Source: an uncultured Bacteroidales bacterium
GTDB lineage: Bacteria > Bacteroidota > Bacteroidia > Bacteroidales > ML635J-15
Length of the DNA stretch: 46,887 nucleotides
Direction: 5' to 3'
Assembly: GCA_964407055.1 (NCBI GenBank)
Contig: CAYOUD010000001.1
Location: 11,838 to 58,724 of the forward strand
Below the pieces are notes generated by a model, which had not been told where the DNA came from, did not search any database, and saw only the letters and a list, made by a program, of their open reading frames with translations. Position numbers and translations under genes: made by a program. Positions 30,378 through 43,585 of the stretch are shown here, piece by piece; the first letter of the stretch is position 1, and the number at the start of each line of letters is the position of its first letter.

Positions 30378-30414
30378 CTCAAAATTCATAATTAAAAATT
30401 CATAATTCATAATT
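30378..30414. repeat. Right 37-nt terminal inverted repeat of the four-helix-bundle cassette; related direct repeats lie at 30283-30345
   Basis: CTCAAAATTCATAATTAAAAATTCATAATTCATAATT. It abuts and overlaps (30413-30414) the stop codon (30413-30415) of the next gene. Confidence 0.9.
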
Positions 30415-32728
30415 ATTTCACAATCAGTTTTTTACTCAAATTGTATTCATTGCTAATGAGTTTTATATGGTAAATTCCTTTGTCAAGATTGCTAAGATTT
30501 AGGGTGTAACTGCTGCCGGAAACTTGTTTTTGCTGCACAAGGCGACTGCTGTTGTCGTAGAGCAATAAGCTTGCATTTTGTGTGGCAGGGAACACAAGTT
30601 CGGTGCTACTGCTTGCCGGGTTGGGATACAGAGCTAAGCTAGCTTGCTGTTGCAGCTCGTAGCTGCTGCAAATTTCTGCAGAAACGATGATGGTATCTGT
30701 CCACTCGCAGTACATGTTTCCTTGGGCGGTGTTAAAAGTTTTGCCCATGCTTATTGTTAATGTATCTGTTTGAACTGTGCTGTATGTTTGGCTATAACTT
30801 TGCCCTGTGCTGCCATCCTGCCAGAGGTATGTTTCGTAGCCGGCGGTGGCGGTAAGTAAAAAGCTGTTGTTCAGGCAGGCAGTGGTATCTGCCGGCAGCC
30901 CGCTGCTGAGTGCAGGCAATGTTTCAAGGCCCAGGTTGATGATTGTATCTCCGCCCGGGTTTTCAATCAGAGCCGTGTAAGTGCCGCTGTTGTTATAGGT
31001 TTGCCCGCCAATTTGCACAGCCTCTCCATGGCATAAAATGGCAGTAGAATCCAAATGCACAGGGCAGTTTTTACCGTAACGTGCTAAAAACATGCTTCTG
31101 TTACTTGTATATAAGCTGGTGTCTCCTTCAAAATCTAAATCTGCATCAAAAATTCCGGTGAACCAGATATTACCTGCAGCATCTACTTTTGTGTCGTTAG
31201 CCCAGACTCCCCAACCATCATCTGTTCTGAGGTTGCGGACAGAGCATAATTCCCCGGCTGTGTTGTAAGTGAGGTGGGAGAAGCCGACAAATACGTCTTT
31301 TGTGCCGTCATGCGTGTAAAGGGTGTCTCCAAAATTCAAGCCATAGCCCCATCGTAAGCCTACGTATAAACTGTCATTGGCATATTCGACATTTCCGAAG
31401 TCATTTCCTGCTTCTGTGTAAGGAGTACTGTGCCATAACACGCTACCATCATCTTTATTTAATGCTAATAAATAACTCGCATCATAGGTTCCTGAACAAT
31501 CATAACATGGTGCTTCAAATATATCACCATTTGGGAAAATTGAATGATAAATATCTACTGACTGATTATTTCTTGCATTTCCTGTGCCGGAAATATATAA
31601 TGCTTCATTATTTTCATCAATATCTATGCTTAAAAATGTAGATTGTCCTCCACTATTTGGGACTCCAGCTACTAATGTGTCTGCAGCAAACCGATACATT
31701 TGCTCTACCCACTGAATGGTGCCGGCACTGTCAATTTTCATGACAAAACCAATGTCTTTGCCGTGCTGTTGAAATTCGATTGTGTGGCCATCGGCAAGGT
31801 AGAGGGTGCCGGGGGGATAGTTTTGTTCGGTGCTGTCAAGTAATACTGCTTTTCCGACATAATACATATTGTCATCAGAATCAGCTGTGATGTCCATAAA
31901 ATTAATTTTTGTACGTGGATTTATGACTGAAGTTGAAATGCTGTCGATTAATGGCTTAAACCATTGAATGCCAAAGTTTGCATTGAATTTGAAAAGTAAG
32001 TAATTATTTTTAATGTCAAAATAAAGCGAATCTGTTATGGGTGTTGTATCTACATAGTATTGATAATTATCCCAAAGATAAAAAACATCATTATAAAGCC
32101 CTAGTAGATAATAATTGTTTGAGTTTGAAATGTAAAATGGTGAATTTACAAGCATATGATTTTCCCAGAACCTAGAAGACTCCATCCCTTTCCACAGGAA
32201 TTTGGTGCATAAATTGTTTCCATCAAGATCAAGCTTTGTGAAATAATTATACCAATTTCCATCAATCCAGGGAAAAGTGTAAGGCCATTCTAATTCAGTG
32301 GCGTATATTAGACTGTCCAAAAAATAGGTATTATACGGTTCCTTAAAACGCACATCGCCCATGATGTAAATGGTATCGTTTTTTATTTGCATCCAGTTTG
32401 ATGAGGCATCAAACTGTTGGCATCTAACAGCCTTGGTCCATTGCAATTCGCCCTGACAATTGAATTTTGCCAAAAAACTTCCTCTGGTGTTGTCTGTTCC
32501 TCCTGCCGTTGGCAAATAGGTTGTGTCAATGCTCATCATTTGCCCGTATGCCCCAAAAATATACACATTGCCTTCGCTGTCCATTTCCATGTGTGATGGT
32601 ACATTGTTAGGATTTGTTGAATTACTTGTCATCCCGCCAAATTTTTCTGCAAAGGTCTAGTGAGGGGTTTGGGCGGAAAGCCCTATGGATATTAGTATGC
32701 TTAATAATAGGATTGTCGTATTTTTCAT
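30413..32728 (-). pseudogene. T9SS-secreted beta-propeller-like surface protein, interrupted by an in-frame TAG after the signal peptide
   Basis: ATG 32726-32728 encodes MKNTTILLLSILISIGLSAQTPH. Next comes TAG (32657-32659), and the same frame continues TFAEKFGG-MTSNSTNPNN... into the 739-aa track ORF. The C-terminus LYPNPASSSTELVF...GIYHIKL is a T9SS sorting domain. Confidence 0.65.
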
Positions 32729-34523: not shown

Positions 34524-37500
34524 ATGAAGTATTTTTTACATATCGCCTTTTTTTTGATGATGATTATATCCCTTAACTCCAGTGCGCAAAATGTTGGAAA
34601 TGAGTGGATTGATTATGATCAGGAATATTATCGTGTGCCGGTAACCGAAGATGGAATTCATCGCATACCATATCAAGTATTAGTAAATCGAGGTTTTCCG
34701 GCAAACGAAATTGACCCACGCCGAATTCAAATTTTTTATGAAGGTGAAGAGCAATACATTTATATTAAGGGAGAAGGAAGTAACGGGATTTTTGACCCTT
34801 CAGGATATATTGAGTTTTACGGACAGCGAAATCGTGGATATCGGGACACTGTCCTTTGGGATTCGCCGGAAAATTGTATAAATCCTGATTATAGCCTTTT
34901 TACGGATACCGCAATTTATTATTTGTCCTACAACAATTCTACAAATAATCATCGGATTGCAAATATTATCGACAATAATTTTGATGATTACACAGGAAAT
35001 TTGGCAACTTATTGTATAAAACATGTGCGACAAAACTATGTCGGAACATATTATGGCGCTTCTACACAATGCGTTTATACAGAAGGAGAATCTTATTTGG
35101 ATGCCTCGATACAAGAAGGAAGCCCCCGTACAAAGTCTATTTCAACAGCTTCTGCAAGTTCGGCTGGGCCGGATGCTGTAATAGAAATGGCTGTTGCCGG
35201 AACGCCAAATGAAGATTTTATATCCCCTGTACCTCATCATTTAAAAGTTGATTTTCTGGGAGCTACGCGGGTTGATGAAATATATTATGGTTACGAGTTT
35301 GTCCGCAAGCAGGTGGAAATTTCTGCATCTCAAATTCCGGAGCAAATCAGTTTTGTGTTTTCATCCAATGATGTGCAGTCTCCCAGTGTAAATGATTACA
35401 ATCGTTTGGCTTATATTGACATAAATTATGCGCATAATTTTGATTTTGAGGGAGCAGATCAATTTGAATTTTATCTCCCGTCGGGAAGCGGTGCAAAAGA
35501 CTATCTTGAAATCACGAATTTTAATACAGGCAGTTCCGTGTTTTTATTTGATATCGACCAACATGAGCGAATTCTTGCTGTTAATGATGGCGATATGTAT
35601 AAAGTGCTTGCCAACAATAATAGTACAACCCGCCGTATGATTCTAACAAATCAGGATGGGCTGATTCTTGTGGATTCTTTGGCTTCGGTATCACAAAACG
35701 GAAAATTCACTGATTATTTGACTGAAAATCCCAATCCGCAATATTTAATTATCACTCACCCAAAACTCATGTCGGCTGCTCAGGATTATCAGGCATACCG
35801 AAACAGTACCGGACACAATGCTGTAATTTTTAATGTTGAGGAATTGTATGATCAATATGTTTACGGCGTGAAAAAACATCCGTATGCAATGAGAAATTTG
35901 GTTCAGGATATTATCAACCGAACTGCTCGCCAACCCGATTTCTTGTTCTTGTTGGGGAAAGGAATCAGAACTGCTACGGCACGAAATAATGCTGATTATT
36001 TTAATAATAATTTAGTGCCAAGTTTTGGAAATCCACCGAGCGACGTCTTGATTACTGCCGGCATGGAGGATACGAATTTTGAACCTTTAATAGCAACTGG
36101 TCGTTTGGCGGCAAAAACTAATCAGGAAGTCTTAAATTATCTCGATAAAGTGATGGCATATGAGAGCAACCCGGTGGATGAGTGGATGAAACAAATTATG
36201 CATTTCGGTGGCGGAGCAAATGCAAATGAACAGGAAACTTTTGCATCCTATCTGGAAGATTATGAGGAAATTATTGAGGACACATTGTTTGGCGGATATG
36301 TTCATACTTTTTTGAAAAACAGTTCAGCTCCCATACAAATATCGACTTCAGATTCTGTTCGGAATATAATCAATACCGGAACGAGTATGATGTGTTTTTT
36401 CGGGCATGGATCAACCAGCGGATTTGATCAAAATATTGATTTTCCGGAAAATTATAGCAATCAGGACAGATATCCGTTTATGCTGGCAAATTCTTGCTTG
36501 GCAGGAAATATTCATTTGCAATACAGTGAAAGTAGCAGTGAAGATTGGGTGCTTATTCCAAATCGGGGAGCAATTGGGTTTCTTGCTTCAGTTGGGCGAG
36601 GATTACCCTCATATTTGAATGTGTTTTCAAGAAATCTGTATCGGCAAATCGCTTATGAAAATTACGGAACTCCAATTTCATATCAGCAACAACAGGGAAT
36701 AAAAAATGCACAACAAGGCAGTTTGACGGATATCCGTTTAAAAGTAACTTGTCATGAGATGACATTACATGCTGATCCGGCGATACGAATAAATTTTGCC
36801 GAACTCCCTGATTTGAAAATTACAAACGGCGATTTACGTTTTTCTCCCGAGGAAGTAAGTACCGTTCAGGATAGTTTTCAGGTTTTTGTTGCAGTACGAA
36901 ATGTTGGCAGGGCGTTTCAGGATAGTTTTTTAATTCATGTTGAGCGTCGTTTCCCGGATAATAGCACGAAAACTTTAGACATTACAAGGGAAGGAAGTTT
37001 ATATCTTGATACCATCATGTTTAAACTTCCGGTAAATAGTGAAAAAGGACCCGGTTTAAACCAACTTGTTGTTCGATTGGATTATTACGATGAAATTGAG
37101 GAATTGAGTGAGCTAAATAATAATCTGACGCTGAATTTCTTAATTAGCTCCAGCAATTTATTCCCGATTTATCCATACGAATATGCAATTTATCCGAATG
37201 CCTTGGTGACATTAAAAGCATCTACCGGTATACCTTTCGCCCCGGAAATGCAGTATTTATTCCAAATTGACACAACCGATTTATTTAATTCCAATCTTGG
37301 GGCGCCGCTTTATTCAGGGGATGTTGCTTCCCCCGGAGGCGTTGTTGAATGGTCTGTTCCCATAAGTCTCCTAGCGGATCAGGTTTATTATTGGCGAGTT
37401 GCAGCATCACACCCAAATCCTGATTCTGTCCGATGGAATGAATCTTCGTTTATTTACATTCCAGGAGAAGAAGGTTGGTCGCAAGCGCATTTTTTTCAAT

Positions 37501-39530
37501 TTAAGAAAGACAAGTTCAATTTCATGAATTACAACAGAGATACTCGTGATTTTTCTTTTGTTGAAGCTGCCAGACAAATTCAAGTACATAATCAGGGAAT
37601 ATTATGGACTCAAACGTATAGTGATGTTTTCTGGAGCATCGATGGCGCAATTGGAAGTGGACTTGGTGATGTCGGCTGTTGCGGACCATCACCTGCCATG
37701 ATTGTTGCTGTAGTTGATCCGGTTGAACTTCGTGGATGGATGTCAGATTATCAGGATTTTGGGCACAGAAATTATCCGAAATGTTTTTCACAGGGTGGCC
37801 CAGGCTCTTTTTTCGTGTTTAGTACCGGTTCGGCTGATGATTTTAACGAAGAAGCAATGTTAGCCATGAATGACATGCTTGTAAATTATGTTCCAGATGG
37901 ACATTATATTGTGGCATATTCCTGGGCTGACGGTTATTTTGAAAGCTGGAGTGAAACGCTTTTAACAACATTTGAAAGTTTGGGCTCTACTCAGATTCGC
38001 ACGATTCCAAATGATATGCCGTATATCTTTTTCTGTCAGAAAGGTGATCCTGATTCTGCGGAAGAGGAGGTTGGAGATAATCCGAGTGCTGAGATTGATT
38101 TTTATGTTGATCTTACTACGCCGTTTAATTATGGAACGGTGTTAAGCACTGTGATTGGCCCCTCAAATCATTGGAGCTCGTTGCATTGGTACCAAGAGAG
38201 TATGGATGACCCGGATTTTGATATCAGTCAACTGGAGATTCTTAAATTCGACCCTGTGACATTTGAGGAAACTCCCATTGATACTGTGTATCCACCAAAT
38301 TATGAAATTTATCAACTAAATAATGAGATTCCGGCATCTGAAAATCCATTTTTGAAATTGAAATTTCGCACCCGTGATGATTCTGTCAAAACTCCCGGGC
38401 AACTTGACAAGTGGCAGATACGCTACACAGGTATCCCAGAAACGGCAATCAATCCACAAGCAGGTTTTTATTACAGTGGCGATACCGTAATGCAAGGTGT
38501 GGATTTTGAATTTGCATTGGCAACAGAGAATATTAGCCCTTATGATATGGATTCTCTGCTTGTGAAATATTGGCTGCAAAGTTCAAATAACGAGATGATT
38601 GATTTGGGGACAAAACGATTAAGTCCGCATCCGGCAGGGGATGTTATTATGGATACTTTACAATTTAATACCATCGATTTAAGTGGACTAAACTCTATAT
38701 GGATTGAATATAACCCAAGCGTAGCCGGTGGGAATTATGATCAACCGGAGCAGTATCATTTTAATAACATTGCGCAGTTTTATTTTTATGTTCAAAGCGA
38801 TGATAAAAATCCAATATTAGATGTTTCTTTTGATGGAGTAAGAATCCTAGACGGAGACATTGTATCGGCGAAACCTGAAATATTAATCAGCTTAAATGAT
38901 GAAAATCCCTATTTGGCACTGAATGATACTGCCTTGTTTAGAGTTTATCTTACCGACATAAACGGCGGGACAGAACATCGGATATTTTTCCGTGATAGTT
39001 TTGGCAATGAACAGTTGGAGTGGACTCCCGGTGTTTTACCTGAAAATAAATTCCGCATTGTATATCGCCCCGAATTTGATGCGGATGGCATTTATCAGTT
39101 GAGGGTACAGGCAACCGATATGTCAGGAAATGAATCCGGCGATTTTGACTTTACCATAAGTTTTGAAGTGATTACAAAGTCGAGCATTACTCACATTCTC
39201 AACTATCCCAATCCGTTCTCAACGTCAACCCGATTTGTTTTTGAACTGACCGGTTCGGTTATCCCGGATGAAATTCGCATTGAAATTTATACCGTTACCG
39301 GAAAGCTTGTTAAAGTGATTGATCAATATGAGCTGGGCCCGGTAAATATTGGTCGGAATATTTCAGAATATGCGTGGGATGGTACTGATATGTATGGCGA
39401 CCGCTTAGGAAATGGCGTGTATTTTTATCGTGTAAAAACTAAAATTCAGGGTGAGGATATTGAACGTCGTTCCAATGAATCGGATGCGTTTTTTAAACAA
39501 GAAATTGGCAAAATGTACCTCATGCGATAG
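34524..39530 (+). CDS. C25 (gingipain-type) cysteine peptidase, PorU-like T9SS sortase paralogue (PorU2-like), 1668 aa
   Basis: The PorU-like N-terminus reads WIDYDQEYYRVPVTEDGIHRIPYQVL. Catalytic His context is MCFFGHGSTSGF and Cys context is FMLANSCLAGN. The C-terminus has an Ig/CTD-like domain (ILNYPNPFSTSTRFVFEL...GVYFYRVK). The gene stops at TAG 39528-39530, inside the left 71-nt repeat. Confidence 0.7.
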   Translation: MKYFLHIAFFLMMIISLNSSAQNVGNEWIDYDQEYYRVPVTEDGIHRIPYQVLVNRGFPANEIDPRRIQIFYEGEEQYIYIKGEGSNGIFDPSGYIEFYGQRNRGYRDTVLWDSPENCINPDYSLFTDTAIYYLSYNNSTNNHRIANIIDNNFDDYTGNLATYCIKHVRQNYVGTYYGASTQCVYTEGESYLDASIQEGSPRTKSISTASASSAGPDAVIEMAVAGTPNEDFISPVPHHLKVDFLGATRVDEIYYGYEFVRKQVEISASQIPEQISFVFSSNDVQSPSVNDYNRLAYIDINYAHNFDFEGADQFEFYLPSGSGAKDYLEITNFNTGSSVFLFDIDQHERILAVNDGDMYKVLANNNSTTRRMILTNQDGLILVDSLASVSQNGKFTDYLTENPNPQYLIITHPKLMSAAQDYQAYRNSTGHNAVIFNVEELYDQYVYGVKKHPYAMRNLVQDIINRTARQPDFLFLLGKGIRTATARNNADYFNNNLVPSFGNPPSDVLITAGMEDTNFEPLIATGRLAAKTNQEVLNYLDKVMAYESNPVDEWMKQIMHFGGGANANEQETFASYLEDYEEIIEDTLFGGYVHTFLKNSSAPIQISTSDSVRNIINTGTSMMCFFGHGSTSGFDQNIDFPENYSNQDRYPFMLANSCLAGNIHLQYSESSSEDWVLIPNRGAIGFLASVGRGLPSYLNVFSRNLYRQIAYENYGTPISYQQQQGIKNAQQGSLTDIRLKVTCHEMTLHADPAIRINFAELPDLKITNGDLRFSPEEVSTVQDSFQVFVAVRNVGRAFQDSFLIHVERRFPDNSTKTLDITREGSLYLDTIMFKLPVNSEKGPGLNQLVVRLDYYDEIEELSELNNNLTLNFLISSSNLFPIYPYEYAIYPNALVTLKASTGIPFAPEMQYLFQIDTTDLFNSNLGAPLYSGDVASPGGVVEWSVPISLLADQVYYWRVAASHPNPDSVRWNESSFIYIPGEEGWSQAHFFQFKKDKFNFMNYNRDTRDFSFVEAARQIQVHNQGILWTQTYSDVFWSIDGAIGSGLGDVGCCGPSPAMIVAVVDPVELRGWMSDYQDFGHRNYPKCFSQGGPGSFFVFSTGSADDFNEEAMLAMNDMLVNYVPDGHYIVAYSWADGYFESWSETLLTTFESLGSTQIRTIPNDMPYIFFCQKGDPDSAEEEVGDNPSAEIDFYVDLTTPFNYGTVLSTVIGPSNHWSSLHWYQESMDDPDFDISQLEILKFDPVTFEETPIDTVYPPNYEIYQLNNEIPASENPFLKLKFRTRDDSVKTPGQLDKWQIRYTGIPETAINPQAGFYYSGDTVMQGVDFEFALATENISPYDMDSLLVKYWLQSSNNEMIDLGTKRLSPHPAGDVIMDTLQFNTIDLSGLNSIWIEYNPSVAGGNYDQPEQYHFNNIAQFYFYVQSDDKNPILDVSFDGVRILDGDIVSAKPEILISLNDENPYLALNDTALFRVYLTDINGGTEHRIFFRDSFGNEQLEWTPGVLPENKFRIVYRPEFDADGIYQLRVQATDMSGNESGDFDFTISFEVITKSSITHILNYPNPFSTSTRFVFELTGSVIPDEIRIEIYTVTGKLVKVIDQYELGPVNIGRNISEYAWDGTDMYGDRLGNGVYFYRVKTKIQGEDIERRSNESDAFFKQEIGKMYLMR

Positions 39531-39561
39531 GTTTACCACTGTACTCCCATCGTTTGATTTA
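39491..39561. repeat. Left copy of the perfect 71-nt direct repeat flanking the R-M island
   Basis: TTTTAAACAAGAAATTGGCAAAATGTACCTCATGCGATAGGTTTACCACTGTACTCCCATCGTTTGATTTA is identical to 42782-42852. The bases flanking each copy differ on both sides. Confidence 0.97.
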
Positions 39562-39638
39562 AACTTGTCTTATGCTATGCATAATTCAAACATTCATCGT
39601 TCTGAAATAAATCTGTCCCGTTAGGGAAAAAATATTGG

Positions 39639-39670
39639 TACACCCGGACAAGGAACGCAGTCTGGGTGTA
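39639..39670. other. Hairpin-capable inverted repeat in the island's left non-coding arm
   Basis: TACACCCGGA - 12 nt - TCTGGGTGTA. Nine of ten positions are Watson-Crick and one is a G-U pair in RNA. Confidence 0.4.
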
Positions 39671-39779
39671 TGCTAATGTATAAATGTGGTTTTGCGGAAT
39701 TTTTGCAATTTGGCAAGCAAAAATTGTGACAAAAGCAATTTAGAAGTGTTTAAAATTTGGAGTATTAAAAAACCCTGTC

Positions 39780-39787
39780 TATATTTG
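39780..39787 (+). promoter_or_regulatory. Candidate -7 box (TATATTTG) for the island operon
   Basis: Matches TAnnTTTG, 33 nt upstream of the HTH gene ATG. Confidence 0.4.
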
Positions 39788-39801
39788 TCATAAAATGACA
39801 A
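39785..39801. promoter_or_regulatory. Palindromic candidate operator (C-box-like): TTGTCAT-AAA-ATGACAA
   Basis: Perfect 7+7 inverted repeat overlapping the candidate -7 box, 19 nt upstream of the XRE/C-protein start. Confidence 0.5.
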
Positions 39802-39820
39802 GATTTAATTTACAAGTCAA

Positions 39821-40147
39821 ATGAAAGAAACATTCGGAGAATATATAAAATTATTACGGACTGAAAATGGGATGACCTTAACTCAATTAGCAGCACAATT
39901 AGATATGGATTCTGCAAATTTGAGCAAAATAGAAAATAACAAGAGGGAATTTGATGAAAGACGATTGGAAAAACTTGCAGATGTTTTCAATTTGGATGCA
40001 GATAGATTAAGGGATGAGCTTTTCAGTGAAAAATTTGCAAAAAAAATTTATGATAATTGTTGCTCTGAAAACGCATTAATCTTAGCAGAAGAAAAGGTGA
40101 AGTACCTTAAACAGTCAAATATTAAACAAGGAAATTTAGATTTTTAA
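39821..40147 (+). CDS. XRE-family helix-turn-helix regulator, probable R-M controller (C) protein
   Basis: HTH segment MTLTQLAAQLDMDSANLSKIENNKREF. It is the first gene of the island operon and lies 2 nt upstream of the methyltransferase start. Confidence 0.75.
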   Translation: MKETFGEYIKLLRTENGMTLTQLAAQLDMDSANLSKIENNKREFDERRLEKLADVFNLDADRLRDELFSEKFAKKIYDNCCSENALILAEEKVKYLKQSNIKQGNLDF

Positions 40148-40149
40148 TT

Positions 40150-40950
40150 ATGAAAATAGTATCATTATTTGCAGGTGCCGGTGGGCTTGACTTAGGTTTT
40201 TCAAAGGCAGGGTTTGATATTGTCTGGGCTAATGAATATGATAGAGATATTTGGAAAACATACGAAAAAAACCATCCTAATACAACCCTTGATAAAAGAA
40301 GCATTACAAAAGTACCAAATGAAGATGTTCCTGAATGTGATGGTATTATTGGAGGTCCTCCTTGTCAAAGTTGGAGTGAAGCGGGCTCCTTGCGTGGTAT
40401 TGATGACAATAGAGGTCAGTTATTCTTTGATTTCATTCGCTTGCTTGAAGCAAAACAACCTTATTTTTTCTTGGCAGAAAATGTTTCCGGAATGCTTTTA
40501 TTGAGACATAAAGAAGCCCTTGATAACATTAAAAAACATTTCAAGAACGCTGGAATTGGATATGATTTGCATTTTAAACTGCTTAATGCAAAGAATTATA
40601 AAGTTCCACAAGATAGAAAGCGAGTTTTTTTTATTGGCTTTAGAAGTGATCTAAATATTGATTTTAATTTTCCTGAAGGCTTTAATGAAATAATTCCACT
40701 AAGCAACACAATTAGCGATTTAACGGAGAACGTCCTAAGTGCAAAAAATGGAAAAAATGCAAATAATGGGAATTGCAACGTACCTAATCATGAATATATG
40801 GATGGTGGTTTTTCGAGTATTTTTATGTCTAGAAATCGAGTAAGAAGCTGGGATGAAGTTTCATTTACTATTCAAGCAGGCGCCAGACATGCTCCTCTGC
40901 ATCCACAAGCTCCAAAAATGAAATTTATTGAGCAAAATATTGCAGCATAA
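40150..40950 (+). CDS. DNA (cytosine-5)-methyltransferase, M.HaeIII-like, C-terminally truncated (motifs IX and X absent); probably non-functional
   Basis: Motif I LFAGAGGLDLGF, motif IV GGPPCQSWS, motif VI FFLAENVSGM, motif VIII QDRKRVFFIGF. The target-recognition region NHEYMDGGFSSIFMSRNRVRSW...LHPQAPKM closely tracks M.HaeIII as I remember it. The ORF stops 10 codons later without QGFP / GNAVP motifs. It is 266 aa against ~330 aa for the family. Confidence 0.7.
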   Translation: MKIVSLFAGAGGLDLGFSKAGFDIVWANEYDRDIWKTYEKNHPNTTLDKRSITKVPNEDVPECDGIIGGPPCQSWSEAGSLRGIDDNRGQLFFDFIRLLEAKQPYFFLAENVSGMLLLRHKEALDNIKKHFKNAGIGYDLHFKLLNAKNYKVPQDRKRVFFIGFRSDLNIDFNFPEGFNEIIPLSNTISDLTENVLSAKNGKNANNGNCNVPNHEYMDGGFSSIFMSRNRVRSWDEVSFTIQAGARHAPLHPQAPKMKFIEQNIAA

Positions 40951-41186
40951 TGGAAAGTATAAAATTTGAAAATGAGTTTTATTTAGTTAGAGAATTAGTA
41001 ATTCCTGAATTTGGATATGTAAAAGTAAGCACATTAGGTTTAAATTTTAAAATGATGCTTGATGATGGTTCTTACTTTTCAGAGAAAGCAAGGATTTTAG
41101 ATGAAGATATTTTCTTTTATGTAGAGTTAAATCAAATAATGTTTAATGAATATCAATTGATTAATCTACTAAAGAGTGAATTATGA
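40950..41186 (+). CDS. Hypothetical acidic 78-aa protein
   Basis: The start overlaps the methyltransferase stop (TAATG) and the stop overlaps the next start (ATGA). It has 14 Asp/Glu against 7 Lys/Arg. No family recognised. Confidence 0.5.
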   Translation: MESIKFENEFYLVRELVIPEFGYVKVSTLGLNFKMMLDDGSYFSEKARILDEDIFFYVELNQIMFNEYQLINLLKSEL

Positions 41187-41689
41187 TTCAATTTCAATTT
41201 TTTCCAAGGTCACAAGGAATTACACCAAAAATAAAAGCCATAATTGACTGTTTTGTTGAGGCAAATGGTAAAATTGATTCTGATTATAAAAATCTCAACA
41301 GTAATGCGGTCTTAAAAGAATTATCTGAGCCATTAACTAAACTTGGGTTTAAAGTTGAATTAAGTAAATCAAAAGATGATAAAATAAATGTGCCAGTATT
41401 ATTTGGATTTAATGACCAAATTGATAAATGTTTTAACGCTGATGCTCTAAACGATGATGGTACTATTGTAATTGAAGTTGAAGCTGGAAGAGCAACTGAG
41501 AACAATCAATTTTTAAAAGATATTTTTCAAGCATGTATGATGTTTGGAGTTGAATATTTGGTTATTGCTGTTAGAAATATTTACAGAACACATAAAGATT
41601 TTGAAATTGTATATACATTTTTGGAAACACTTTATATTTCCAATAGGATGCATTTGCCATTGAAAGGTATATTACTTATTGGGTACTGA
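41183..41689 (+). CDS. 168-aa PD-(D/E)XK-fold protein with a BamHI/BglII-like E-x-E signature (restriction-endonuclease-like)
   Basis: The segment FNADALNDDGTIVIEVEAGRATENNQFLKDIF...VEYLVIAV...LKGILLIGY parallels BamHI PIDVY...GMEFETGNISSAHRSMNKLL...IDLAIILMP...PFIFIGF as recalled. Candidate residues are D87, E98, E100 and K112. Confidence 0.5.
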   Translation: MIQFQFFPRSQGITPKIKAIIDCFVEANGKIDSDYKNLNSNAVLKELSEPLTKLGFKVELSKSKDDKINVPVLFGFNDQIDKCFNADALNDDGTIVIEVEAGRATENNQFLKDIFQACMMFGVEYLVIAVRNIYRTHKDFEIVYTFLETLYISNRMHLPLKGILLIGY

Positions 41690-41776
41690 CCGCGTGAGGG
41701 ATTGAAGCGGTTACCCCACAGCGAGGAACGAGCGAGGAGTAAAAGCGGAAAGCCCGACCCGCAGGGGCACGCCCAA
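41690..41776. other. GC-rich (~65%) purine-rich 87-nt element between orf168 and the endonuclease frame; candidate structured RNA or element end
   Basis: I counted 55 G/C in the 84 nt at 41691-41774, in an AT-rich context. A possible interrupted 9-bp stem spans 41691-41700 / 41714-41723 with a 13-nt loop. No start codon is present. Confidence 0.5.
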
Positions 41777-41780
41777 ATAA

Positions 41781-42734
41781 AAAACAGTAAAAGCATTTGA
41801 ATATGCTCTTTTAAAAGAATTCTATCAACGATTAAAAACCCCTAATAACAACGTAATTATTGTTGAAAGTGAACCATACAATACTGCAAAATCTTGTTTT
41901 GAAAGTTTTTGTGAAGATGAACAAGGATTTTATTCTCTTGTGTCTAGTGCTTCAATAAACTTTCTTGTTGATATTGAACCTCGCTTATCTAATAGTATCA
42001 GTCCTGAAGATACCTTGCAACTTGAAATTGTTTCTGATAGTGAAGGACAATCTGGTGATGTTAGAGATGTTTTAGCAATTCGCTTACTTCAAAAATGGGA
42101 AATAGGTATCTCAGCAAAAAATAATCACAGAGCAGTAAAGCATTCTAGATTATCACAGAAGATTGATTTTGGTGAAAAATGGCTTGGTGTACCCTGCTCA
42201 AAAAAATATTTTGAGGAAATCAAACCAATTTTTGATTATTTGACTGCATTGAGGGAAATGGACAAAGATACAACGTGGACTTCTATTCCTGATATGCATC
42301 AGAAAATATATGTTCCATTACTTGATGCCTTTAAACGAGAGTTACAACGATTAAATGATGAGAATCCGGAGATTGTACCACAAAAACTTGTAGAATATTT
42401 AATTGGAAATAAAGATTTTTATAAAGTAATTAAAGGAAAAAACAAAGTAGAGATTCAAGCCTATAACTTACATGGGACACTAAATTTACCTTTTGATAAA
42501 GTAAAACCTAAAGCGAGAATTCAAAAGCTTAAATTGCCAACAAGATTGATTGAAATTGTTTATGACAATAACTCTGTCACAACTATGATTGTCTCTCTCA
42601 GTGAGGGTTGGCAAATTTCTTTTAGAATCCACAGTGCAAGTTCAAGAGTTGAACCGTCTTTAAAATTCGATATTAATTTGATTAGCGCACCCCATACACT
42701 CTTTAACAATCATATTTTTATTGGGGAGAAGTAA
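41781..42734 (+). pseudogene. Type II restriction endonuclease (HaeIII/GGCC-type inferred from its partner), lacking a start codon
   Basis: The frame is open for 317 codons directly after a TAA at 41778-41780 and begins KTVKAFEYALLKEF... The first canonical in-frame start is a GTG 53 codons in (track ORF 41940-42734). A PD-(D/E)XK-like segment GDVRDVLAI...WEIGISAKNNHRAVKHSR is present. Confidence 0.55.
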
Positions 42735-42781
42735 GTTCCTTCTTAAAAACACAATAGAAAGTCCTGTTTTTTTACTAATAA

Positions 42782-42852
42782 TTTTAAACAAGAAATTGGC
42801 AAAATGTACCTCATGCGATAGGTTTACCACTGTACTCCCATCGTTTGATTTA
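42782..42852. repeat. Right copy of the perfect 71-nt direct repeat
   Basis: Identical to 39491-39561. It supplies the functional 3' end (NQTMGVQW*) of the minus-strand gene 42824-43585. Confidence 0.97.
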
Positions 42853-43585
42853 CCCAAAATGTGGTTTTAGTCTTTAATTGTTGAATATCGCAATCGCTTT
42901 CGGTAATATCGACAGTAAGATTTTGGATTTCCTGCTGTTTAAAAGCGTTTAAAACCGGAATAAGGCTTTCAAATTCAGTGCATTGTGTTTGCAACATAGC
43001 ATTTCTGATGAATTCGTTTTCTACCGTTTCATCCGATAACATAAGCCGATTACTTTCCAACCAAATTCCTGTAATAATTAAGCCTGCAAGCGCTGAACGT
43101 TGTGCTTGTATCAAGTCAGATGTGACAGAGGTATAGGCTTGGTTTAGGATTTGAAGCAAACTGTCCGATGTATAGACATTTCGCTCAATTTTTTCAACCG
43201 CAAAAAGAATTTCATCCCGAGGTAAATCCAATGCAAAAAATCGACTTTCAAGCTCTGCTGCATATTCCATGCTTAAATTTACACGGTTAAAATAGCGCAG
43301 GTAGCTTAAATCTGCAAGTAAAATGCCGGTTTGCAAAGCAATCTGCTCATAATTTTCCGGCATTAGAATTTTGTTTGGCATGAGTGTTTCCTGAAAACTT
43401 ATGTTTGCATGCTCAAGCGGGGCAATCATGTCTTGATAACTCGGAATGCTGTCTGGGAGTAATTGAATATCTTCGCTGATTGCACTTTCATCAATTACAA
43501 ATTCGGACTCCTGCTTTTGTCCACAGGAAAAAACCAGTAAACAACATAGCATTAAAATGAATTGCGTTTGTCTCATTATTTCCAA
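42824..43585 (-). CDS. Lipoprotein of unknown function, co-transcribed with GH92
   Basis: Signal peptide plus lipobox (LLVFSCGQ). The body is helical. It overlaps the GH92 stop by 10 nt. Confidence 0.6.
   Translation of the reverse strand: MEIMRQTQFILMLCCLLVFSCGQKQESEFVIDESAISEDIQLLPDSIPSYQDMIAPLEHANISFQETLMPNKILMPENYEQIALQTGILLADLSYLRYFNRVNLSMEYAAELESRFFALDLPRDEILFAVEKIERNVYTSDSLLQILNQAYTSVTSDLIQAQRSALAGLIITGIWLESNRLMLSDETVENEFIRNAMLQTQCTEFESLIPVLNAFKQQEIQNLTVDITESDCDIQQLKTKTTFWVNQTMGVQW

What the first reader, a model, noticed from the sequence alone, without database searches (positions are those of the whole stretch)
39491..42852. R-M island inserted with a perfect 71-nt target duplication spanning the 3' ends of two convergent genes
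The 71-mer at 39491-39561 is repeated exactly at 42782-42852, and the bases just outside each copy differ. Each copy contains the last 38 nt plus TAG of the porU-like gene, a 2-nt spacer, and the last 29 nt (including the stop) of the convergent lipoprotein gene. The left copy completes the porU-like gene and the right copy completes the lipoprotein gene, so both host genes stay intact. The 3,220 bp in between carry restriction-modification-type genes and no integrase, transposase or terminal inverted repeats. This is the signature called insertion with long target duplication. It was reported for R-M units in Helicobacter pylori genome comparisons (Kobayashi laboratory), and I am not aware of it in Bacteroidota. 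An integrase-less satellite using a 71-bp att site is an alternative.
Basis: partly seen in the sequence, partly recalled or inferred. Interest (0 to 1): 0.7.

Follow-up and report, generated by a model that had tools for sequence, protein, structure and literature searches.

The report
Defective restriction island, 71-bp target duplication
A 3.2-kb piece of foreign DNA carrying a broken restriction-modification system was inserted between two converging genes of an uncultured Bacteroidales bacterium, copying 71 bp of the target to both sides; the insertion is confirmed, but it is a new example of a known and still unexplained insertion mode.

Summary
An exact 71-mer lies at 39491-39561 and 42782-42852 and occurs nowhere else in the window. 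It spans the PorU2-like stop codon (37 nt + TAG, not 38), a 2-nt spacer and the last 29 nt of the convergent lipoprotein gene.

Three independent assemblies of the same species, and two sister species, have the two genes tail to tail around a single 71-mer. Three other assemblies carry the island; one of them, a k=141 contig, spans both copies. So this is a real insertion polymorphism, and the empty state is ancestral.

The 3,220-bp insert has lower GC, no recombinase, no terminal inverted repeats and no ends shared with related islands. It meets the published criteria for "insertion with long target duplication".

The cargo is not an intact R-M system:
- The HaeIII-family methylase lacks motifs IX and X.
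- The HaeIII-family endonuclease lacks its start codon.
- Between them sits a nested cassette: acidic ORF78, ORF168 with a BamHI/OkrAI-like nuclease fold, and a Flavo-1-like RNA motif.

In other metagenomes this cassette recurs inside GGCC R-M loci at many different breakpoints. How the duplication was made remains inferred. Verdict: a new member of a known kind, of moderate interest.

The parts
34524..39530 (+). PorU2-like T9SS sortase-family gene (1668 aa). Its last 37 nt and TAG stop lie in the left repeat copy.
   Evidence: NCBIfam PorU_rel_Nterm E 2e-224, Por_Secre_tail at the C-terminus. The protein is identical in the empty-site contig L001.
39491..39561 (.). Left copy of the 71-bp target duplication. 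It completes the PorU2-like gene and carries a 29-nt fragment of the lipoprotein 3' end.
39562..42781 (+). Inserted island, 3,220 bp, GC about 0.29-0.33 against 0.38-0.42 in the flanks. All genes lie on the + strand.
   Evidence: Absent from empty alleles L001, L025 and L026 and from sister species L028 and L029. Composition.
39562..39779 (.). Left arm of the island: non-coding, with no homolog in any related island or other fetched locus. Presumably donor-flank DNA.
   Evidence: Homology to related units starts only at 39752-39780. blastn of the arm against all loci gave nothing.
39785..39801 (.). C-box-like palindrome TTGTCAT-AAA-ATGACAA, 20 nt upstream of the C gene.
   Evidence: Conserved as TTTGTCAT-N4-TGACAAG upstream of the C genes of L007 and L009 while the surrounding sequence varies. 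Operator function is inferred.
39821..40147 (+). Controller (C) protein-like HTH regulator, 108 aa.
   Evidence: Pfam HTH_3 2.6e-12. PADLOC HTH_VI and Control_protein. It is the first gene of related C-M-R-Vsr units.
40150..40950 (+). M': truncated HaeIII-family C5 cytosine methyltransferase, 266 aa, ending after ...KMKFIEQN. Motifs IX (RRLSVRECARIQ.FPD) and X (GNAVPV) are missing.
   Evidence: Pfam DNA_methylase positions 1-253 of 324. Alignment with the intact 335/353-aa M of L007 and L009.
40950..41186 (+). ORF78: small acidic protein (pI 4.4), a fast-evolving partner of ORF168. Function unknown.
   Evidence: An ORF78-family gene precedes ORF168 in most of 80 loci. pI. dN/dS 0.4. Not related to the MTase C-terminus (hhalign probability 0.4%).
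41183..41689 (+). ORF168: nuclease-like protein with a BamHI/OkrAI-type PD-(D/E)XK fold. Invariant D87...E98-x-E100.
   Evidence: 3,769 homologs. AF2 model pLDDT 84.9. Foldseek best hits OkrAI 3odh_B (E 4.5e-3, prob 0.99) and BamHI. Invariant residues. No Pfam, NCBIfam, PADLOC or PHROG hit.
41684..41780 (+). GC-rich Flavo-1-like RNA motif directly 3' of ORF168. It replaces the start codon of the R gene.
   Evidence: Rfam RF01705: 31 bits against a gathering score of 42, full model length, E 4e-5 to 7.6e-4. 94% identical to L017 where flanking genes are 75-81%. Present 3' of ORF168 in at least 15 loci.
41781..42734 (+). HaeIII-family restriction endonuclease reading frame: 317 codons open, lacking the first 5 codons and any in-frame start before GTG 41940.
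   Evidence: Pfam RE_HaeIII 4.8e-94. Intact homologs are 322 aa and start MAIQTKTGKAFEY. Junction alignment.
42735..42781 (.). Right arm of the island: possible decayed stub of the 5' end of a vsr gene (weak).
   Evidence: blastn homology to the L007 unit runs to 42770, which is 36 nt into L007's overlapping vsr gene.
42782..42852 (.). Right copy of the 71-bp target duplication. It completes the lipoprotein gene and carries a 40-nt fragment of the PorU2-like 3' end.
42824..43585 (-). Lipoprotein gene (250-253 aa, signal peptide with a Cys), convergent on the PorU2-like gene.
   Evidence: The 250-aa product is identical in occupied and empty contigs. No family hit.

Best explanation
In one lineage of an uncultured Bacteroidales species, a 3,220-bp fragment of foreign, AT-richer DNA was inserted exactly where the PorU2-like gene and a lipoprotein gene meet tail to tail. 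The 71 bp of target that spans both stop codons ended up on both sides of the insert, so both genes keep complete 3' ends (shown).

The insert is not an element with defined ends. It is a piece cut out of a C-controlled GGCC (HaeIII-family) C-M-R-Vsr unit. It consists of about 220 bp of unrelated left flank, C, M, R and perhaps a stub of vsr. It already carried a nested cassette (ORF78, ORF168 nuclease, Flavo-1-like motif) that removes methylase motifs IX and X and the endonuclease start codon (shown).

Most likely mechanism (inferred): a single recombinase-independent, illegitimate capture of a linear DNA fragment. Either the fragment joined at a break whose two strands were cut 71 nt apart, or repair replication switched template into the fragment and returned 71 nt upstream of where it left. 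Fill-in synthesis then created the duplication. This is the 'insertion with long target duplication' described by the Kobayashi laboratory.

The [71-island-71] allele now segregates beside the ancestral empty allele in a recombining population (shown). It can presumably move between strains by ordinary homologous recombination of its flanks and be lost by recombination between the repeats (inferred).
For: - Exact 71-nt repeat, unique in the window.
- Single-copy empty sites in three independent assemblies with flanks 99.6-99.9% identical.
- The same tail-to-tail, 2-nt-spacer arrangement without an island in two sister species, so the empty state is ancestral.
- Empty alleles carry ATC/GGA where both copies of the occupied allele carry ATT/GGC, and ATC is the outgroup state. 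The empty alleles are therefore not recent excision products of this occupied allele.
- Occupied allele in three further assemblies, including a k=141 contig that spans both copies.
- GC drop in the island.
- No recombinase, transposase or inverted termini.
- Related units (L007, L009, L011-L014, L017-L022) align only to 39752/39780-42734/42770. They sit in other genomic contexts and have no long flanking direct repeats, so there is no conserved att site or element end.
- The locus meets all criteria of Furuta et al. 2010 (PMC2853133), including their remark that such repeats often span stop codons and leave the target genes intact.
Against: - The donor sequence was not found, so junction microhomology, the key signature of illegitimate joining or template switching, cannot be read.
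- The R-M cargo looks disabled. There is no GGCC site in the 71-mer, and the nearest sites are at 39336 and 44868. The Kobayashi idea that the element's own restriction enzyme makes the break gets no support here.
- Both SNPs that separate occupied from empty alleles fall inside the 71-mer, 3 nt apart, where about 0.1 would be expected from the flank divergence. This hints that the window lineage may have received a pre-formed allele from another strain rather than being the place where the insertion happened.
- The other islands of this family examined show no clean long duplication.
Confidence: 0.72

Rival explanations
1. The window's lineage did not experience the original insertion. It received the finished [71-island-71] allele from a conspecific donor. 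This could have happened by homologous recombination of the flanks after transformation or conjugation, or by Campbell-type single crossover between a circular [island + one 71-mer] and the resident 71-mer. This explains spread within the species, not the origin of the duplication, and it is compatible with the main explanation.
For: Only 39506/39509 (in both copies) and 44041 are perfectly linked to occupancy. Neighbouring SNPs (38876, 44571, 46707) are shuffled between occupied and empty contigs, so the population recombines and the island-linked block is at most about 0.6 kb to the left and 1.7 kb to the right. Two SNPs inside 71 bp exceed the roughly 0.1% flank divergence.
Against: A single crossover between a circle carrying ATT/GGC and a resident ATC/GGA 71-mer would usually leave the two copies different, yet they are identical in all occupied contigs. 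No circular junction or tandem form could be tested. The sample is small: three or four occupied and three empty contigs.
Confidence: 0.3
2. Site-specific integration: the island is an integrase-less satellite or mobilisable element whose attP equals the 71-bp attB and which is inserted by a recombinase encoded elsewhere.
For: Perfect direct repeats flanking a low-GC island are also what att sites look like. Integrases can act in trans.
Against: 71 bp of identity to a species-specific junction of two coding 3' ends is not a conserved target. The sister species already differ at roughly 8-14 of the 71 positions. No recombinase lies in the island or among the neighbouring genes. Related islands have different ends, different contexts and no shared flanking repeat. 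The right end may lie within a vsr stub rather than at an element terminus, though that evidence is weak.
Confidence: 0.05
3. The nested ORF168 nuclease, rather than generic DNA damage, made the staggered break, so that islands carrying this cassette insert with long target duplications as a rule.
For: ORF168 has a BamHI/OkrAI-like nuclease fold with the acidic triad conserved. In 80 other ORF168 loci, 9 of 13 direct-repeat pairs of at least 28 nt flank ORF168, against about 3.4 expected. These include L033 (about 100 nt, 84%), L076 (137 nt, 82%, the 3' end of the upstream gene), L084 (61 nt, 88.5%) and L100 (78 nt, 100%).
Against: The control is biased because the loci are centred on ORF168. 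Some pairs are ORF78 paralogs or cassette-internal (L052, L100). No empty sites were checked for those loci. Most loci, including two copies of the same island in different contexts (L011 and L012), show no flanking repeat. There is also no short duplication within 450 nt of ORF168 beyond chance. Type II-like enzymes of this fold cut with 0-5 nt stagger, not 71 nt (general knowledge).
Confidence: 0.07
4. Artefact or reversed polarity: the duplication is an assembly error, or the island is ancestral and the 'empty' sites are deletions.
For: De Bruijn assemblers can misjoin at repeats. Recombination between 71-bp direct repeats would give a perfect empty site.
Against: Independent k=141 contigs read through both copies. 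Two sister species are empty with the same gene geometry. The gene fragments in the duplicate copies can only arise by duplication. Empty alleles carry the ancestral ATC, not the ATT of the occupied allele.
Confidence: 0.03

Closest known systems
Insertion with long target duplication of restriction-modification units (Nobusato et al. 2000, Gene 259:99; Furuta, Abe & Kobayashi 2010, NAR 38:2428, PMC2853133)
   Same: A small insert (under 20 kb) carries R and M homologs and no mobility gene. It is flanked by a direct repeat longer than 30 bp that is single-copy in an empty-site relative. The repeat spans stop codons so the target genes survive, and the insert has lower GC than the host.
   Different: The host phylum (Bacteroidota) is not among those listed: Proteobacteria, Cyanobacteria, Actinobacteria, Thermus. 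The duplication covers the stops of two convergent genes at once. The R-M cargo is already disabled and carries a nested nuclease cassette, so an active restriction enzyme of the island is unlikely to have driven the event. Evidence comes from metagenome populations rather than pairs of complete genomes.
Genomic islands and prophages integrated by tyrosine or serine recombinases (att duplications, often tRNA 3' ends)
   Same: Direct repeats flank a low-GC island, and the target gene is restored by the repeat.
   Different: There is no recombinase, no conserved target and no conserved element ends. The 71-bp identity is to a species-specific sequence.
IS elements and DNA transposons (short target-site duplications)
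   Same: A target duplication flanks the inserted DNA.
   Different: The duplication is 71 bp rather than the under 10 bp that Furuta et al. give as typical for transposons. There are no terminal inverted repeats and no transposase.
HaeIII-family (GGCC) type IIP R-M units with C protein and Vsr, as in L007 (GCA_040777565) and L009
   Same: Same gene order and about 80-85% nucleotide identity over C, the first 790 nt of M, and R. Same C-box-like palindrome.
   Different: 268 bp of the intact unit (M 3' end, spacer, first 5 R codons) are replaced by the 841-bp ORF78-ORF168-Flavo-1 cassette. vsr is reduced to, at most, a stub.
BamHI/OkrAI-type restriction endonucleases and free-standing homing-endonuclease genes (comparison for the nested ORF168 cassette)
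   Same: A small PD-(D/E)XK nuclease fold with a D...E-x-E motif. The gene is highly conserved, spread across phyla, and often solitary between housekeeping genes, for example between hisH and hisA/F in L071.
   Different: Only fold-level similarity (E 4.5e-3, 12% identity). There is no cognate methylase. It is linked to a small acidic ORF and a structured RNA motif. It sits preferentially inside GGCC R-M loci, with many different breakpoints in M and R. No activity is known.

Membership tests
Insertion with long target duplication (criteria of Furuta et al. 2010) | The inserted segment contains both R and M gene homologs | tested here: met
   Pfam DNA_methylase 7.8e-72 and RE_HaeIII 4.8e-94. 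Both are truncated. The paper itself counts cases with partial M and R genes.
Insertion with long target duplication (criteria of Furuta et al. 2010) | Insert shorter than 20 kb | tested here: met
   3,220 bp
Insertion with long target duplication (criteria of Furuta et al. 2010) | Flanking direct repeat longer than 30 bp | tested here: met
   71 bp, 100% identical
Insertion with long target duplication (criteria of Furuta et al. 2010) | A related genome has an empty site with one copy of the repeat aligned to both flanks | tested here: met
   L001, L025 and L026 (same species) and L028 and L029 (sister species)
Insertion with long target duplication (criteria of Furuta et al. 2010) | No mobility gene (integrase, transposase, resolvase, phage gene) in the insert or among the five flanking genes | tested here: met
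   The insert was scanned with Pfam, NCBIfam, PADLOC and PHROGs. Precomputed Pfam for the neighbours shows Por_Secre_tail, Peptidase_C25, GH92, MurJ, AMP-binding and PPIase. ORF78 is unassigned but is 78 aa and acidic.
Insertion with long target duplication (criteria of Furuta et al. 2010) | The repeat is not a multi-copy genomic repeat | tested here: inconclusive
   Only two copies in the 46.9-kb window, and none in the JGI metagenome scan of a 43-nt core. The whole genome was not available.
Functional HaeIII-family type IIP R-M system | C5 methyltransferase with all ten motifs, including IX and X | tested here: not met
   M' ends after ...KMKFIEQN. RRLSVRECARIQ.FPD and GNAVPV are absent. ORF78 does not supply them (hhalign probability 0.4%).
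Functional HaeIII-family type IIP R-M system | Full-length endonuclease gene with its own start codon | tested here: not met
   The first 5 codons (MAIQT) are replaced by the Flavo-1-like element. An in-frame TAA lies at 41778-41780. The first in-frame start is GTG 41940, at codon 54 of the retained 317-codon frame (about residue 59 of the intact 322-aa protein).
Functional HaeIII-family type IIP R-M system | GGCC methylation of host DNA | not testable with these tools
   Needs methylome data. GGCC is about 3-fold under-represented in the host part of the window (17 against 53-60 expected). This reflects history, not present activity.
Integrase-mediated integrative element (att x att) | Tyrosine or serine recombinase encoded in or next to the element | tested here: not met
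Integrase-mediated integrative element (att x att) | Element ends and att core conserved among copies in different genomes | tested here: not met
   Related islands align only internally (39752/39780-42734/42770). The arms have no homologs.
IS element or DNA transposon | Terminal inverted repeats, a transposase and a short target duplication | tested here: not met
   No terminal inverted repeats. No transposase. The duplication is 71 bp.
Flavo-1 RNA motif (Rfam RF01705) | Score at or above the Rfam gathering threshold with the consensus structure | tested here: inconclusive
   31 bits against a gathering score of 42. Full-length match, E 4e-5 on 181 nt and 7.6e-4 on 3.4 kb. Folding energy is not exceptional (z = -1.1). 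Homologous copies in L017 and others did not pass E 0.01 in a 50-kb scan.
BamHI/OkrAI-like PD-(D/E)XK restriction endonuclease (ORF168) | Fold similarity plus a conserved acidic catalytic triad | tested here: inconclusive
   Foldseek OkrAI E 4.5e-3, prob 0.99, TM 0.58/0.52; BamHI E 0.13. D87, E98 and E100 are invariant in 32 homologs. No sequence-level hit to PDB or Pfam.

The most novel reading that the evidence does not exclude
The nested ORF78-ORF168-Flavo-1 unit may be a previously undescribed selfish nuclease cassette that lives in, and disables, GGCC-specific R-M systems. It removes the methylase 3' end and the endonuclease start in one stroke. It recurs in HaeIII-type and NgoPII-type loci with many different breakpoints. 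It also occurs alone inside housekeeping operons. The identical M'/ORF78 junction is found in R-M units that are saturated at synonymous sites yet still show dN/dS of 0.03-0.06. This suggests the cassette is moved among live R-M units by recombination, that is, by homing-like spread. In the strongest version, its nuclease also supplies the breaks that let such islands insert with long target duplications.
Probability: 0.2. Interest if true: 0.7.

Novelty: new member of a known kind. Interest (0 to 1): 0.38.

Why it matters
Insertion with long target duplication has been catalogued since 2000, but its mechanism has never been shown. This locus adds a clean, perfectly preserved case in a new phylum. 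Both alleles co-occur in natural samples of one study series, so PCR or long-read tests for circular or tandem intermediates are feasible.

The case also shows that an active R-M system in the cargo is probably not required for this insertion mode. That weakens the idea that the element's own restriction enzyme makes the break.

The more unusual by-product is the ORF168 nuclease cassette, which appears to colonise and erode GGCC R-M systems. If confirmed, it would be a parasite of a selfish element. It would also give a function-linked context to the orphan Flavo-1 RNA motif.

Tried and rejected
- An exact-match scan of JGI metagenome contigs with a 43-nt core of the 71-mer found nothing.
- Look-ups of the 253-aa lipoprotein form and of the 264-aa R form (P0022) were not on record.
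- ORF78 as the missing methylase C-terminus, giving a split M like M.AquI: rejected by hhalign (probability 0.4%).
- The ORF78 structure model was too poor to use (pLDDT 55.9). A PDB profile search was empty, and the word-based homolog search found only 2 proteins.
- A co-conversion gradient near the cassette junctions, which would support recent homing into the window's unit, was not seen.
- Long flanking repeats around related islands L007, L009, L011, L012 and L013: none.
- A short duplication within 450 nt of ORF168 in 54 loci: nothing beyond chance except L108.
- Microhomology at the right junction, using L007 vsr as a proxy donor, was only weak similarity and is not interpretable.
- Rfam at gathering threshold found nothing in the window, and no tRNA was found.
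- ORF168 in phage records: none. In plasmids there is one 51% match on a Bacillus plasmid, unannotated, with a dcm gene about 3 kb upstream.
- The promoter/terminator scan was uninformative.

Full report
OBSERVATION. The window holds one long direct repeat: 71 nt, 100% identical, at 39491-39561 and 42782-42852. No further copy or partial copy exists on either strand. The chance expectation for such a pair in 46.9 kb is about 1e-32. The PorU2-like ORF (34524-39530; NCBIfam PorU2 N-terminal domain, E 2e-224) ends with TAG at positions 38-40 of the repeat. Positions 41-42 are a GT spacer. Positions 43-71 are the last 29 nt, stop included, of the convergent lipoprotein ORF (42824-43585, minus strand). 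The bases outside the copies differ, and the interval between them is 3,220 bp.

REALITY AND POLARITY. Exact-protein look-ups found the locus in other assemblies. Contig ERZ27316330 k141_172949 (L001) encodes the identical 1668-aa PorU2-like protein, followed 2 nt later by the lipoprotein gene. It aligns to the window at 99.86% up to 39561 and at 99.90% from 42782, and it has one 71-mer. Two further empty contigs come from ERZ27315402 (L026) and from an unrelated run, SRR8526173 (L025). The occupied allele is present in three assemblies. ERZ27317826 (27.9 kb, k=141) spans both copies. ERZ27316679 crosses the left junction. In SRR8862235, the k=31 Logan contig is the island plus exactly 30 nt of repeat at each end. 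A scan of species-representative genomes with the lipoprotein found two sister species, Bacteroidales MAG GH38 (81% identity) and Bacteroidota MAG268 (78%). Both have the same tail-to-tail geometry with a 2-nt spacer and no insert. The empty state is therefore ancestral, and the duplication is not an assembly artefact.

THE CARGO. All island genes are on the + strand, and GC falls to 0.29-0.33 from 0.38-0.42 in the flanks. The contents, in order:
- about 220 bp of non-coding DNA with no homolog in any locus fetched;
- a C-box-like palindrome conserved in related units;
- a 108-aa HTH controller-type protein;
- a C5 methyltransferase of 266 aa that matches Pfam DNA_methylase only over positions 1-253 of 324;
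- ORF78 and ORF168;
- a 91-nt GC-rich element;
- a HaeIII-family endonuclease frame;
- 47 bp that may be a decayed stub of a vsr gene.

Intact relatives exist. L007 (GCA_040777565) and L009 (JGI 3300027985) carry C-M(335/353 aa)-R(322 aa)-Vsr, and they align to the window at about 80-85% over 39780-40939 and 41781-42770. Against them, the window's methylase stops after ...KMKFIEQN and lacks motif IX (RRLSVRECARIQ.FPD) and motif X (GNAVPV). The endonuclease frame lacks its first five codons (MAIQT), has an in-frame TAA immediately upstream, and has no start before GTG 41940. So 268 bp of an intact unit have been replaced by an 841-bp cassette. As encoded, the GGCC R-M system looks disabled.

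THE NESTED CASSETTE. ORF168 has 3,769 homologs, most of them 168 aa and 65-100% identical. They are named in Bacteroidota, Balneolota (Cyclonatronum), Spirochaetota (Treponema) and Acinetobacter records, with a 51% match on a Bacillus plasmid. No Pfam, NCBIfam, PADLOC or PHROG family matches. An AlphaFold model from 32 homologs (pLDDT 84.9, pTM 0.83) matches OkrAI best (3odh_B: E 4.5e-3, probability 0.99, TM 0.58), then BamHI. D87, E98 and E100 are invariant and resemble the BamHI-type D...E-x-E site (general knowledge). ORF78 is acidic (pI 4.4) and fast-evolving (dN/dS 0.4). A family member with the motif DGxYxSxEAxxIDExIFYFV precedes ORF168 in most loci. ORF78 is not the missing methylase C-terminus (hhalign probability 0.4%). 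The GC-rich element is a sub-threshold, full-length match to Rfam Flavo-1 (31 bits against 42). It is 94% identical between the window and L017, where the neighbouring genes are 75-81% identical. It follows ORF168 directly in at least 15 loci.

In 80 metagenome loci with ORF168, the gene lies beside fragments of HaeIII-type M and R genes at many different breakpoints:
- M is cut after about residue 30, 56, 74, 96, 112, 123, 170 or 262.
- In other loci ORF168 is followed by 3' parts of M.
- In L085 the cassette replaces M residues 124-228.
- In L034 M is cut just before motif X.

In L076 the neighbour is a truncated NgoPII-type GGCC endonuclease instead. Elsewhere ORF168 stands alone, for example between hisH and hisA/F in L071.

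The same M'(266 aa)-ORF78-ORF168 arrangement with the identical junction occurs in at least three diverged lineages in different genomic contexts (L011/L012, L017-L022/L031, and the window). Yet M' and R show dN/dS of 0.03-0.06 with saturated dS and no internal stops. The window's M' is closer to the intact L007 gene (85%) than to the other M' copies (78%) along its whole length. Two readings remain open. Either these truncated genes still do something, or the cassette with its junctions is carried among live GGCC R-M units by recombination. I could not decide between them.

NO ELEMENT ENDS, NO RECOMBINASE. Related islands align to the window only between 39752/39780 and 42734/42770. The arms next to the 71-mers are unique. 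Two 95%-identical copies of one island variant sit in different contexts (L011, L012) without any target duplication or terminal repeat. No terminal inverted repeats flank the window's island. The genes around it are ordinary: Por_Secre_tail protein, PorU2, GH92, MurJ, an AMP-binding enzyme and PPIase. This rules out a transposon. It also makes an att-using satellite very unlikely, because a 71-bp attP identical to a species-specific junction, one that already differs at roughly 8-14 positions in sister species, has no plausible origin other than prior residence at this very site.

POPULATION SIGNAL. Across the shared 14 kb, occupied and empty contigs differ at about 0.1%. Only three polymorphisms are perfectly linked to occupancy. 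Two are 39506 T/C and 39509 C/A, both synonymous, both inside the 71-mer, and both present in both copies. The third is 44041. Sites 38876, 44571 and 46707 are shuffled among occupied and empty contigs. So the population recombines, and the island-linked block is short. ATT at 39506 is derived relative to both sister species; the second site cannot be polarised. Three consequences follow:
- The empty alleles are not recent excision products of this occupied allele.
- The two changes predate the duplication or were homogenised afterwards.
- The window's strain may have received the finished allele by homologous recombination rather than being the site of the original event.

MECHANISM. What is shown is the end product: a foreign fragment without defined ends, flanked by a perfect 71-bp copy of the target. 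What is inferred is the route. The product fits a recombinase-independent capture of linear DNA with 71 nt of repair synthesis. This could be joining at a break with 71-nt overhangs. It could equally be two template switches during repair replication, the second landing 71 nt upstream of the departure point. Without the donor I cannot read junction microhomology. Using L007 vsr as a proxy gave only weak similarity. The island's own GGCC endonuclease is an unlikely agent: it lacks a start codon, and the nearest GGCC sites are 155 bp to the left and 2 kb to the right.

The ORF168 nuclease is a candidate agent only in a speculative sense. Some other ORF168 islands are flanked by long direct repeats: L033 about 100 nt at 84%, L076 137 nt at 82% (the 3' end of the upstream gene), L084 61 nt at 88.5%, and L100 78 nt at 100%. 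Overall 9 of 13 repeat pairs flank ORF168 against about 3.4 expected. However, the control is biased, two cases are ORF78 paralogs or cassette-internal, no empty sites were checked, and most loci show nothing.

COMPARISON WITH WHAT IS KNOWN. The locus satisfies every criterion that Furuta, Abe and Kobayashi (2010, PMC2853133) used for 'insertion with long target duplication': R and M homologs in the insert, an insert under 20 kb, a repeat over 30 bp, an empty site in a relative, and no mobility gene. It also matches their observation that such repeats often span start or stop codons and spare the target genes. Their cases come from Proteobacteria, Cyanobacteria, Actinobacteria and Thermus. Bacteroidetes are not mentioned, and a full-text search found no Bacteroidota case under that term. 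Three things differ here: the phylum, the coverage of two convergent stop codons by one repeat, and a disabled, cassette-invaded cargo.

VERDICT. It is a new member of a known, mechanistically unexplained kind of event, so the interest is moderate (0.38). The most unusual item is the nested ORF78-ORF168-Flavo-1 cassette and its apparent habit of colonising GGCC R-M loci, which deserves its own study.

Noticed in passing
window 40950-41780; loci L011-L022, L031-L110: ORF78 + ORF168 (BamHI/OkrAI-like fold) + a Flavo-1-like element form a conserved cassette. It lies inside HaeIII-type and NgoPII-type GGCC R-M loci at many different M and R breakpoints, and elsewhere stands alone. It looks like a selfish nuclease cassette that colonises or erodes R-M systems.
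   Followed up: partly
window 41684-41780; L017 2374-2475 and at least 14 other loci: The 91-nt GC-rich element 3' of ORF168 is a sub-threshold, full-length Rfam Flavo-1 match (31 bits against 42). It is 94% conserved where neighbouring genes are 75-81% conserved. It replaces the R start codon. This would give the orphan Flavo-1 motif a gene association.
   Followed up: partly
window 40150-40950 and 41781-42734, compared with L007, L009, L011, L017: The truncated methylase and the start-less endonuclease show dN/dS of 0.03-0.06 with saturated dS and no internal stops, even between units that share the identical cassette junction. The window's M' is closer to an intact M (85%) than to other M' copies (78%). 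This is unexplained.
   Followed up: partly
window 39506, 39509 (= 42797, 42800), 44041: The only SNPs perfectly linked to island presence. Two of them are 3 nt apart inside the 71-mer and occur in both copies. Nearby SNPs (38876, 44571, 46707) are shuffled between occupied and empty contigs, so the population recombines.
   Followed up: yes
whole window outside 39562-42781: GGCC is about 3-fold under-represented in host DNA: 17 sites against 53-60 expected. The island has none, against 1.5-2 expected. This suggests long exposure of this lineage to GGCC-specific restriction.
   Followed up: no
L071 4306-6291: A solitary ORF168 homolog sits between a hisH-like (GATase) gene and a hisA/F-like (His_biosynth) gene, overlapping the end of the first. 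That is an insertion inside a housekeeping operon.
   Followed up: no
L076 4037-6867: A GC-rich genome carries truncated R.NgoPII - ORF168 - M 3' fragment, flanked by a 137-nt, 82%-identical direct repeat that is the 3' end of the upstream 464-aa gene. This is a possible older case of the same insertion mode. No empty site was checked.
   Followed up: partly
L100 540-617 and 2259-2336; L108 4844-4886 and 5707-5749: A perfect 78-nt direct repeat (43 nt in L108) flanks ORF168. However, the repeat is the 3' end of an ORF78-family gene that here lies downstream of ORF168. This suggests cassette-internal or tandem rearrangement rather than target duplication.
   Followed up: partly
window 30413-32632 (-), 31169-31199, 32283-32423, 32551-32564: The Por_Secre_tail protein gene upstream of the locus has dense SNP clusters between assemblies. 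L001 nt 1-141 do not match the window at all upstream of 32424. This may be a local hypervariable or rearranged segment.
   Followed up: no
L111 (CP095861.1 27318-27821): A 51%-identical ORF168 homolog, not listed as a gene in the PLSDB table, lies on a mobilisable Bacillus plasmid. A dcm methylase gene lies about 3 kb upstream and an MvaI/BcnI-family endonuclease gene about 4 kb downstream.
   Followed up: no
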